This document shows positions 58,316 through 58,552 of a stretch of 64,000 bases of DNA, piece by piece. Under the pieces are notes generated by a model that had not been told where the DNA came from, did no database searches, and was given only the letters and a program-made list of their open reading frames with translations. This stretch comes from Escherichia coli (GTDB taxonomy: Bacteria > Pseudomonadota > Gammaproteobacteria > Enterobacterales > Enterobacteriaceae), in assembly GCF_013122565.1 (NCBI RefSeq), contig NZ_CP053258.1, one strand, 5' to 3'. How positions within the stretch are numbered: the stretch's first letter is position 1; every line of letters starts with the position of its first letter. The position numbers and the translations under genes are program-made.

Positions 58316-58344
58316 CTTCTTCTTTGCCTGCTCATCCCTTTCTG

Positions 58345-58360
58345 ACAGCAGAAATCATGC
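58345..58360 (-). promoter_or_regulatory. Candidate sigma54 (-24/-12) promoter for zraSR
   Basis: Minus strand reads tggcatgatttctgct (GG-N10-GC spacing). Confidence 0.5.
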
Positions 58361-58413
58361 CATCTTTTATCAGCGCTTACCCTGCGCTGTAACACAAAGG
58401 CTTAAGTTTCAAT

Positions 58414-58459
58414 GAGTAAAAATGACTCGCTACCCGCAGCAGGCGAGTCATTTTTACTC
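58414..58459. promoter_or_regulatory. Candidate ZraR enhancer palindrome between zraP and zraS
   Basis: Perfect 17-bp inverted repeat gagtaaaaatgactcgc-N12-gcgagtcatttttactc, placed between the two divergent sigma54 promoters. Confidence 0.6.
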
Positions 58460-58501
58460 GCCTATCACGCCAGATTGCCCGTCATATCAGCGTTTCATCG
58501 T

Positions 58502-58517
58502 TGGCACGGAAGATGCA
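58502..58517 (+). promoter_or_regulatory. Sigma54 (-24/-12) promoter for zraP
   Basis: tggcacggaagatgca fits TGGCAC-N5-TTGCA, about 35 bp upstream of the zraP ATG. Confidence 0.65.
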
Positions 58518-58552
58518 ATACCCGAAGTAAGACAACCACTGGAGGATTAACC

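What the first reader, a model, noticed from the sequence alone, without database searches (positions are those of the whole stretch)
58316..58552. Divergent sigma54 promoters with a perfect 17-bp palindrome in the zraP-zraSR intergenic region
The 237-bp region between zraS and zraP contains a perfect inverted repeat, gagtaaaaatgactcgc-N12-gcgagtcatttttactc, flanked by a strong -24/-12 element for zraP and a weaker one for zraSR on the opposite strand. This architecture matches a shared enhancer for the ZraR activator. It is known biology but very clearly readable here.
Basis: partly seen in the sequence, partly recalled or inferred. Interest (0 to 1): 0.3.

Follow-up and report, generated by a model that had tools for sequence, protein, structure and literature searches.

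The report
Shared ZraR enhancer between zraP and zraSR
This is the well-known control region of the E. coli zinc/envelope-stress system ZraPSR: two mirrored binding sites for the activator ZraR sit between two back-to-back sigma-54 promoters. It is real and clearly readable, but it is ordinary, already described biology.

Summary
The 237-bp zraS-zraP intergenic region (58316-58552) holds a perfect inverted repeat: arms 58414-58430 and 58443-58459, with a 12-nt spacer. It is the longest perfect inverted repeat in the window; about 1.6e-4 are expected by chance per 64 kb.

I built a sigma-54 weight matrix from 133 published ChIP-seq sites, leaving out zraP and zraS. Its two best hits in the whole window flank the repeat:
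- 58501-58517 (+), facing zraP, 17.6 bits.
- 58347-58363 (-), facing zraSR, 16.4 bits.

Both are identical to sigma-54 sites bound in vivo in K-12, with occupancy scores of 39 and 9. The strongest published ZraR ChIP-exo peak in K-12 maps to window 58423-58455, inside the repeat.

Across 16 aligned loci from five genera, only four blocks are conserved: the two promoters and two 15-nt sites (GRGTAAAAATGACYC). Three further loci scanned without alignment also carry both sites, giving 19 loci from six genera. The two sites are always 31 bp apart centre to centre.

Minor additions from this work:
- The conserved unit is 15 nt. The perfect 17-nt arms are seen only within Escherichia.
- Escherichia has lost one helical turn (11 bp) between the enhancer and the zraP promoter.
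- ZraS carries a deeply dimorphic periplasmic sensor domain in E. coli.

The parts
55617..56942 (-). zraR: sigma-54-dependent response regulator (enhancer-binding protein), 441 aa
   Evidence: ORF. Pfam domains Response_reg + Sigma54_activat + AAA_lid_14 + HTH_8. NCBIfam equivalog NF007689 ZraR, 995 bits against a cut-off of 760. Residues 141-441 match the solved Salmonella ZraR structure 1OJL at E = 5.6e-178.
56939..58315 (-). zraS: sensor histidine kinase, 458 aa; overlaps zraR by 4 bp
   Evidence: ORF. HisKA + HATPase_c, with a sub-threshold sCache_3_2 match (26.3 bits against a cut-off of 28.4). NCBIfam equivalog NF007688 ZraS, 887 bits against a cut-off of 479.
58347..58363 (-). PzraSR: sigma-54 -24/-12 element ATGGCATGATTTCTGCT; the inferred TSS is near 58336, 21 nt before the zraS start codon
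   Evidence: PWM score 16.37 bits, second best in the window. Identical to ChIP-seq site OS39, occupancy score (FAT) 9. Conserved in 16 of 16 aligned loci. The TSS uses Bonocora's rule of motif centre + 19 and was not measured here.
58414..58430 (.). Left arm of the inverted repeat, the zraSR-proximal ZraR site. Conserved 15-nt core GAGTAAAAATGACTC at 58414-58428, with its own GAGT-N7-ACTC dyad
   Evidence: Partly covered by ChIP-exo peak_9, which spans 58423-58455.
58431..58442 (.). 12-nt spacer TACCCGCAGCAG between the arms. Its length is invariant and its sequence is free to vary
   Evidence: No indels here in the 16 aligned loci, and the sequence is not conserved. Most within-E. coli substitutions near the repeat fall here or 3' of the right arm.
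58443..58459 (.). Right arm of the inverted repeat, the zraP-proximal ZraR site. Conserved 15-nt core GAGTCATTTTTACTC at 58445-58459. In this window its own dyad extends to AGGCGAGT-N7-ACTCGCCT (58441-58463)
   Evidence: (I1, I8). Partly covered by ChIP-exo peak_9.
58501..58517 (+). PzraP: sigma-54 -24/-12 element TTGGCACGGAAGATGCA; the inferred TSS is near 58528, 25 nt before the zraP ATG
   Evidence: PWM score 17.57 bits, best in the window. Identical to ChIP-seq site OS38, occupancy score (FAT) 39. Conserved in 16 of 16 aligned loci. The Salmonella LT2 counterpart is bound by sigma-54 and its expression is 16-fold sigma-54-dependent.
58553..58978 (+). zraP: periplasmic zinc-binding chaperone and feedback modulator, 141 aa
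   Evidence: ORF. Pfam Metal_resist. NCBIfam equivalog NF008584 ZraP, 274 bits against a cut-off of 200.

Best explanation
The inverted repeat is the upstream activating sequence (enhancer) of the ZraPSR envelope-stress/zinc system. It consists of two 15-nt ZraR sites (GRGTAAAAATGACYC) in mirrored orientation, 31 bp centre to centre, which is about three helical turns and so puts them on the same DNA face.

**Proposed mechanism (steps marked as shown or inferred).**
1. Each site has its own GAGT-N7-ACTC dyad and most likely binds one ZraR dimer through the C-terminal Fis-type HTH_8 domains. This is inferred by analogy with NtrC.
2. When ZraS senses periplasmic Zn/Pb or envelope stress, it phosphorylates ZraR. 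This is established for K-12 and was not tested here.
3. The site-bound dimers nucleate an AAA+ oligomer that loops to sigma-54 holoenzyme closed complexes. One complex sits at PzraP, with its motif centre 72.5 bp from the enhancer centre. The other sits at PzraSR, 81.5 bp away on the other side. ATP hydrolysis then drives open-complex formation. This step is inferred from the family.
4. One two-fold-symmetric enhancer therefore drives both zraP and, by positive autoregulation, zraSR.

**What is shown.** The repeat, the two promoters, their in vivo sigma-54 occupancy in K-12 on identical sequence, ZraR occupancy on the repeat, and ZraR-dependence of both transcripts.
For: - **Sequence and statistics.**
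- **Identity with K-12.** The window and K-12 are identical across both promoters and the repeat. The only four substitutions, at 58461, 58462, 58468 and 58477, lie outside them.
- **Sigma-54 occupancy.** ChIP-seq in K-12 on exactly these motifs, with occupancy scores (FAT) of 39 for zraP and 9 for zraS (PMC4591121). Sigma-54 ChIP-chip and sigma-54-dependent expression at the Salmonella counterparts (PMC3844500).
- **ZraR occupancy.** The ChIP-exo peak_9 coordinates convert to 58423-58455. In a zraR knockout in zinc, zraP falls by log2 12.7 and zraS by log2 3.2 (PMC7657598 supplement). gSELEX gave one high-affinity ZraR target, this spacer, in 81 of 86 clones (PMC8249747).
- **Phylogenetic footprint.** In 16 aligned loci (Escherichia, Citrobacter, Salmonella, Kosakonia, 'Enterobacter' lignolyticus) only the two -24/-12 elements and the two 15-mers are conserved. 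Site-to-site distance is 31 bp in all 19 loci examined.
- **Specificity in the window.** The 15-mer occurs with two or fewer mismatches only at these two places.
- **Adjacent cognate activator.** It has the Response_reg + Sigma54_activat + HTH_8 architecture.
- **No alternative signals.** No sigma-70-like promoter or intrinsic terminator lies in 58200-59100.
Against: - Nothing contradicts the core claim.
- The original footprinting paper (Leonhartsberger et al. 2001, J Mol Biol 307:93) is not in the held library. Base-pair-level footprint limits therefore rest on ChIP-exo coordinates. My recollection of its abstract is 'two inverted repeats separated by a 14 bp spacer'. That would fit 16-nt arms here, but I could not verify it.
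- All binding and expression data are from K-12 or LT2, not from this strain.
- A second ZraR ChIP-exo peak (S/N 34) maps to 58543-58568, over the zraP start codon, where no ZraR motif exists. It is unexplained.
- The stoichiometry of one dimer per 15-mer, the looping, and the apparent lack of an IHF requirement are inferred. An IHF consensus scan was negative, but that is only a consensus scan.
Confidence: 0.93

Rival explanations
1. The inverted repeat acts as a nucleic-acid structure rather than as protein-binding sites. It could be an RNA hairpin (terminator or attenuator) or a DNA cruciform.
For: As single-stranded DNA the 66-nt segment folds into a perfect hairpin of -18.1 kcal/mol, z = -6.3 against shuffles. 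Rfam reports only hairpin-shaped, sub-threshold matches to eukaryotic miRNA precursors.
Against: - The repeat lies upstream of both inferred transcription starts, so the induced mRNAs do not contain it.
- No T-run follows it on either strand, and the terminator scan found nothing.
- Across 16 loci, 12 of 17 'pairs' never vary. Pairing and covariation are no better than shuffled controls (465-471 of 500 shuffles reach the observed values). The inner two pairs are broken in 4 and 6 of the loci.
- Conservation is therefore of sequence, not of pairing. The Rfam hits are far below the gathering scores.
Confidence: 0.02
2. The repeat is the operator of a regulator other than ZraR, for example a repressor or another enhancer-binding protein, and ZraR acts from somewhere else.
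For: Bonocora et al. saw zraP induced under nitrogen limitation and raised the possibility of a second enhancer-binding protein. The GT-N7-AC core of each site is also the NorR enhancer core listed in PMC4987338.
Against: ZraR ChIP-exo peak_9 lies inside the repeat, and gSELEX with purified ZraR selects this spacer. [quoted passage not shown] The sites co-occur with zraPSR in every one of the 19 loci examined.
Confidence: 0.03
3. This is a variant on stoichiometry. The whole 46-bp repeat is a single dimer site, with one monomer per 17-nt arm, rather than two adjacent dimer sites.
For: A modelling paper tabulates ZraR autoregulation as '1 binding site', citing Leonhartsberger 2001 (PMC3219618). 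The perfect two-fold symmetry of the arms in E. coli would suit one dimer.
Against: - The arm centres are 31 bp apart, about 105 Å. From my knowledge of the family, that is too far for the compact dimeric Fis-type HTH domains of NtrC-family proteins.
- Each arm has its own GAGT-N7-ACTC dyad.
- In 17 of 19 left sites, positions 2 and 14 are either A/T or G/C (GAGT..ACTC or GGGT..ACCC). That keeps the internal dyad symmetric.
- In other genera the two arms are no longer exact mirror images of each other.
Confidence: 0.1

Closest known systems
E. coli K-12 zraP-zraSR (hydHG) intergenic region, with the ZraR/HydG enhancer and divergent sigma-54 promoters (Leonhartsberger et al. 2001; RegulonDB/EcoCyc)
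   Same: It is the same locus. The intergenic region is 237 bp in both. Both promoters, both arms and the spacer are identical, and the gene order zraR-zraS <> zraP is the same.
   Different: There are four substitutions between the right arm and PzraP (58461-58462 CC for TT, 58468 C for T, 58477 G for A). The linked zraS carries a different periplasmic-domain allele.
NtrC enhancer at glnAp2 (E. coli/Salmonella)
   Same: A response-regulator enhancer-binding protein with the same domain architecture. Two dyad-symmetric sites lie about three helical turns apart, upstream of a sigma-54 promoter, and nucleate an oligomer that loops to the promoter. The glnAp2 geometry is from my own knowledge.
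   Different: The site sequence is different. The NtrC sites serve one promoter from about -108 and -140. Here one symmetric pair serves two divergent promoters from about -76/-107 (zraP) and -85/-116 (zraSR).
NorR enhancer in the norR-norVW intergenic region
   Same: The enhancer sites are built on a GT-N7-AC inverted core (listed in PMC4987338). Each ZraR 15-mer, GA-GT-AAAAATG-AC-TC, contains that same core. The region also lies between divergently transcribed genes.
   Different: NorR uses three sites (PMC2831303 abstract). By my own knowledge only norVW is sigma-54-dependent there; this was not checked here. In the ZraR sites the flanks and the central A5TG are invariant and specific.
FhlA-dependent hycA/hypA divergent sigma-54 promoters
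   Same: A pair of back-to-back sigma-54 promoters in one intergenic region, driven by one enhancer-binding protein (sites OS27 and OS28).
   Different: From my own knowledge, FhlA uses separate upstream sites for each direction rather than one central symmetric pair. FhlA is not a two-component response regulator.

Membership tests
Sigma-54 (-24/-12) promoter | GG at -24 and GC at -12 with canonical spacing (TGGCAC-N5-TTGCA) and a high PWM score | tested here: met
   58501-58517 (+) scores 17.57 bits and 58347-58363 (-) scores 16.37 bits. These fall at the 95th and 86th percentiles of the 133 training sites and rank first and second in the window.
Sigma-54 (-24/-12) promoter | Occupied by sigma-54 holoenzyme in vivo, with sigma-54-dependent transcription | not testable with these tools
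   Literature only, on identical K-12 sequence: ChIP-seq sites OS38 and OS39. The Salmonella counterparts are bound by sigma-54 and are 16-fold and 3.7-fold sigma-54-dependent.
Sigma-54 (-24/-12) promoter | Correct orientation and distance to a downstream gene | tested here: met
   The inferred TSSs lie 25 nt before the zraP ATG and 21 nt before the zraS start, each oriented towards its gene. The distances match Bonocora's table.
NtrC-type enhancer (UAS) for a bacterial enhancer-binding protein | A cognate activator with a receiver domain, a sigma-54-interaction AAA+ domain and an HTH_8 domain, encoded at the locus | tested here: met
   Pfam and NCBIfam results. Match to PDB 1OJL.
NtrC-type enhancer (UAS) for a bacterial enhancer-binding protein | Dyad-symmetric sites about 70-150 bp upstream of the -24/-12 element, spaced by an integral number of helical turns | tested here: met
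   Site centres are at -76/-107 relative to zraP and -85/-116 relative to zraSR. The 31-bp spacing is invariant in 19 loci.
NtrC-type enhancer (UAS) for a bacterial enhancer-binding protein | The activator physically occupies the sites | tested here: met
   I converted the published K-12 ChIP-exo peak_9 to window coordinates. It spans 58423-58455, inside 58414-58459. gSELEX agrees. This is a coordinate mapping of others' data, not a new binding assay.
NtrC-type enhancer (UAS) for a bacterial enhancer-binding protein | The sites are required for activation (mutational evidence) | not testable with these tools
   Needs reporter fusions with mutated arms.
NtrC-type enhancer (UAS) for a bacterial enhancer-binding protein | The sites are conserved as sequence across species while their flanks diverge | tested here: met
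   Alignment A3, where only four blocks are conserved. There is no pairing-type covariation.
ZraPSR three-component system | ZraP, ZraS and ZraR orthologues in the zraR-zraS <> zraP arrangement | tested here: met
   All three pass the NCBIfam equivalog cut-offs. RefSeq annotation of near-identical E. coli DNA agrees.

The most novel reading that the evidence does not exclude
The enhancer is a strictly two-fold-symmetric, face-of-helix-constrained bidirectional switch. One ZraR oligomer assembled on the mirrored pair can engage only one of the two flanking sigma-54 closed complexes at a time. The ratio of ZraP (feedback inhibitor and chaperone) to ZraSR output would then be set by promoter affinity and by the two loop lengths.

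The Escherichia lineage would have re-tuned this ratio by deleting exactly one helical turn (11 bp) on the zraP side. The distance from the right site to the promoter motif is 56-57 bp in Escherichia and 68-69 bp in Citrobacter, Salmonella, Kosakonia and 'E.' lignolyticus. The zraSR side stayed at 65-66 bp.
Probability: 0.25. Interest if true: 0.3.

Novelty: already known. Interest (0 to 1): 0.1.

Why it matters
It matters little as a discovery. The zraP-zraSR control region, its sigma-54 promoters and ZraR binding there have been described since 2001 and re-mapped by ChIP-seq, ChIP-exo and gSELEX.

Its value is as a clean positive control. A reader without tools correctly read a bacterial enhancer and two sigma-54 promoters from raw sequence.

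The comparative results here add modest detail:
- a 15-nt ZraR site consensus, GRGTAAAAATGACYC;
- invariant 31-bp spacing between the two sites;
- a one-helical-turn difference between genera on the zraP side.

These could guide the design of zraP-promoter-based metal biosensors and tests of loop geometry.

Tried and rejected
- **Original footprinting paper.** Leonhartsberger 2001 (PubMed 11243806) is not held. Full-text searches for the arm sequences returned only unrelated primer matches. A search for 'ZraR + inverted repeats + spacer + intergenic region' returned nothing. Several citing papers state only that ZraR binds the intergenic region, without coordinates.
- **Sigma-70 promoters and terminators.** A scan of 58200-59100 found none.
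- **IHF site.** A scan for WATCAANNNNTTR with up to one mismatch, across 16 orthologous regions, gave one isolated hit in E. whittamii and nothing conserved. I do not propose an IHF site.
- **RNA or cruciform structure.** There is no covariation, and Rfam gives only spurious sub-threshold miRNA-precursor hits.
- **More ZraR sites in the window.** At three mismatches there are six matches against 4.4 expected by chance. Only the two known sites have two or fewer mismatches.
- **Genome-collection scan.** I widened the set through protein searches and exact-protein look-ups. No Klebsiella or Enterobacter ZraP appeared among the 120 hits listed for each of the two searches. More than 300 further hits per search were not displayed, so this says little about their absence.
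- **Simple helical-phase rule for the zraP side.** It is weakened by one Pluralibacter metagenome-assembled locus with 65-bp spacing and a degenerate zraS -12 element.
- **Literature on the ZraS sensor-domain dimorphism.** The search was uninformative because the query was too loose.

Full report
**1. What is in the sequence.**
The window carries zraR (55617-56942, -), zraS (56939-58315, -) and zraP (58553-58978, +). They are separated by a 237-bp intergenic region, 58316-58552. The three products pass the NCBIfam equivalog cut-offs for ZraR, ZraS and ZraP and have the expected Pfam architectures. ZraR residues 141-441 match the solved Salmonella ZraR structure 1OJL at E = 5.6e-178. Of 5,426 complete E. 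coli genomes, 5,420 hold this region, annotated zraP/zraS. The window is E. coli-like but not identical to any of them over the 371 bp tested; the best match is 99.2%.

**2. The observation.**
The repeat finder reports a perfect inverted repeat with arms 58414-58430 (GAGTAAAAATGACTCGC) and 58443-58459, 12 nt apart. It is the longest perfect inverted repeat with a spacer of 40 nt or less in the 64 kb. The runner-up has 13-nt arms, and the maximum in 30 Markov simulations was 13. About 1.6e-4 such repeats are expected per window.

**3. The promoters.**
I built a 17-column weight matrix from the 133 other sigma-54 ChIP-seq motifs printed in Bonocora et al. 2015 (PMC4591121), leaving out zraP and zraS. 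I then scored every position of the window on both strands.
- The two best hits are 58501-58517 (+) TTGGCACGGAAGATGCA at 17.57 bits and 58347-58363 (-) ATGGCATGATTTCTGCT at 16.37 bits. The next hit scores 13.93.
- These strings are exactly Bonocora's sites OS38 (zraP, occupancy score 39) and OS39 (zraS, occupancy score 9). So 'strong for zraP, weaker for zraSR' is right both by score and by occupancy.
- By their rule of motif centre + 19, the starts fall near 58528 and 58336. That is 25 nt and 21 nt before the start codons, matching their table.
- No sigma-70-like promoter or terminator was found in 58200-59100.

**4. Is the repeat where ZraR binds?**
The window and K-12 MG1655 are identical across both promoters and the whole repeat. 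The only four differences are at 58461, 58462, 58468 and 58477. K-12 coordinates can therefore be transferred using window x = 4260241 - NC_000913.3 position. I checked this mapping against both start codons.
- The ChIP-exo supplement of Choudhary et al. 2020 (PMC7657598) lists ZraR peak_9 at 4201786-4201818 with S/N 73, the highest-S/N ZraR peak among the rows retrieved. It maps to window 58423-58455, nested in the repeat (58414-58459), with centres 2.5 bp apart.
- In the same data, deleting zraR in zinc lowers zraP by log2 12.7 and zraS by log2 3.2.
- Shimada et al. 2021 found this spacer to be the single high-affinity gSELEX target of purified ZraR, in 81 of 86 clones (PMC8249747).
- One caveat remains. 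A weaker peak_8 (S/N 34) maps to 58543-58568, over the zraP ribosome-binding site and start codon, where there is no ZraR-like motif. I cannot explain it. Loop-mediated cross-linking to promoter-bound polymerase or a high-transcription artefact are both possible.
- The original footprinting paper (Leonhartsberger et al. 2001) is not held. I recall its abstract describing 'two inverted repeats separated by a 14 bp spacer', which would fit 16-nt arms here. That is memory, not a checked result.

**5. Comparative test.**
I collected orthologous regions by protein, not by the repeat, so the sample is unbiased with respect to the repeat. They came from ten loci from a species-representative genome scan and eight from exact-protein look-ups. 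Together with the window they cover Escherichia (five species or lineages), Citrobacter, Salmonella, Kosakonia, 'Enterobacter' lignolyticus and a Pluralibacter metagenome-assembled genome.
- In the 16-locus alignment only four blocks are conserved: the two -24/-12 elements and two 15-nt sites, G[AG]GTAAAAATGAC[TC]C and its mirror image. The spacer and all other intergenic sequence diverge freely.
- The two sites are 31 bp apart centre to centre in all 19 loci.
- Treating the arms as a hairpin gives no support. Twelve of 17 pairs never vary, the covariation measures are matched by more than 90% of shuffles, and the innermost two pairs are broken in 4 and 6 loci.
- Conservation is thus of sequence, as expected for protein-binding sites. 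The functional unit is 15 nt. The perfect 17-nt arms were seen only within Escherichia, and not in all lineages there.
- Each 15-mer has its own GAGT-N7-ACTC dyad. In 17 of 19 left sites, positions 2 and 14 are A/T or G/C together. That fits one dimer per site, though the right site does not show the same pattern.
- Within E. coli, sampled variants fall mostly in the 12-nt spacer and 3' of the right arm. Hits inside an arm are rare.

**6. Mechanism.**
The following are shown:
- the two promoters and their sigma-54 occupancy;
- ZraR occupancy of the repeat;
- ZraR-dependence of both transcripts;
- the conserved geometry.

The following are inferred from the NtrC family:
- each 15-mer binds a ZraR dimer through HTH_8;
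- phosphorylation by ZraS promotes oligomerisation on the pair, which lies three helical turns apart on the same face;
- the AAA+ ring loops to the closed complexes. The right and left site centres lie at -76 and -107 for zraP, and the left and right site centres lie at -85 and -116 for zraSR;
- ATP hydrolysis opens the promoters.

The enhancer's two-fold symmetry and its near-central position (72.5 and 81.5 bp from the two motif centres) suit a shared bidirectional enhancer. No IHF consensus is present or conserved.

**7. Rivals.**
- An RNA or DNA structure role is disfavoured by the repeat's position upstream of both starts, the absence of T-runs, and the absence of covariation.
- A different regulator is disfavoured by the ChIP-exo and gSELEX data.
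- A single dimer spanning the 46 bp is unlikely on geometric grounds and because of the internal dyads.

**8. Comparison and novelty.**
This is the K-12 zraP-zraSR (hydHG) control region itself, in another strain. It works like the NtrC glnAp2 enhancer. Each site contains the GT-N7-AC core also used by NorR. It is already known, and interest is low.

**9. Things found along the way.**
- **(a) Spacing on the zraP side.** The distance from the right site to the zraP promoter motif is 56-57 bp in Escherichia and 68-69 bp in the other genera, a difference of one helical turn. The zraSR side stays at 65-66 bp. A Pluralibacter locus is an exception at 65 bp.
- **(b) ZraS sensor-domain dimorphism.** The window's ZraS periplasmic domain is only 58% identical to K-12's, with a 7-residue indel, while the rest of the protein is 99-100% identical. 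About 77% of complete E. coli genomes carry the window type and about 23% the K-12 type. Each type also occurs in other Escherichia species.
- **(c) A rare variant in the window.** The window has GCC at 58459-58461 where most genomes have GTT or GCT. This extends the right site's own dyad to 8 + 7 + 8 nt.

Noticed in passing
window 57718-58195 (zraS codons ~41-200, minus strand): The ZraS periplasmic sensor domain is deeply dimorphic. The window allele is only 58% identical in protein to K-12 over residues 41-190, with a 7-aa indel, while residues 1-40 and 191-458 are 99-100% identical. Of 5,419 complete E. coli genomes, 4,183 carry the window type (95% DNA identity or more) and 1,236 the K-12 type (60-80%). 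The window type also occurs in Escherichia sp. MOD1. The K-12 type also occurs in E. whittamii and E. albertii. The two types are as far from each other as from Citrobacter or Salmonella. This suggests an old trans-species polymorphism or a recombinational replacement confined to the sensing domain.
   Followed up: partly
window 58460-58500 (between the right ZraR site and PzraP); loci L002-L016, L021-L023: The distance from the right-site centre to the zraP -24/-12 motif centre is 56-57 bp in 6 Escherichia loci (plus K-12, whose intergenic region is the same 237 bp). It is 68-69 bp in 11 loci of Citrobacter, Salmonella, Kosakonia and 'E.' lignolyticus. That is an 11-bp, one-helical-turn difference. 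The zraSR side is 65-66 bp everywhere. One Pluralibacter MAG (L021) has 65 and 63 bp, a divergent zraP promoter and a degenerate zraS -12 element.
   Followed up: partly
window 58543-58568 (zraP ribosome-binding site and start codon): A second published ZraR ChIP-exo peak (peak_8, S/N 34, NC_000913.3 4201673-4201698) maps here, about +15 to +40 of the inferred zraP start. No ZraR-like 15-mer is present. It is unexplained.
   Followed up: no
window 58459-58468: The window has GCCTATCAC where K-12 has GTTTATCAT and other E. coli have GCTTATCAT. No complete E. coli genome matches 58404-58469 at 100%; the best is 98.5%. The CC extends the right site's internal dyad to AGGCGAGT-N7-ACTCGCCT (58441-58463, I8).
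   Followed up: partly
window 58392-58398: A short block ACACAA(A) between PzraSR and the left ZraR site is conserved in most of the 16 aligned loci, though weaker in Kosakonia, 'E.' lignolyticus and Salmonella. It does not match the IHF or ZraR motifs, and its function is unknown.
   Followed up: no
window 58368-58378 and 58485-58495: A direct repeat TATCAGCG(C/T)TT lies 5-6 bp upstream of each -24 element (D2). It is present only in Escherichia and is probably chance.
   Followed up: no
window 43202-43218 (+) and 63082-63098 (+): These are the next-best sigma-54 PWM hits in the window: CTGGCACCGAGTTTGCC at 13.9 bits and ATGGCAACAATAATGCA at 13.7 bits. They score close to the median of real sites (14.35). 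Their motif strings are not among the high-stringency ChIP-seq sites listed. Their context was not examined.
   Followed up: no
L012 850-2436; L023 1-845: Possible annotation or assembly oddities in relatives. The Salmonella zraS gene call is 528 aa and runs across the enhancer, so its start is probably over-extended. In the C. braakii assembly zraR is split into ORFs of 93 and 353 aa, which suggests a frameshift or pseudogene.
   Followed up: no
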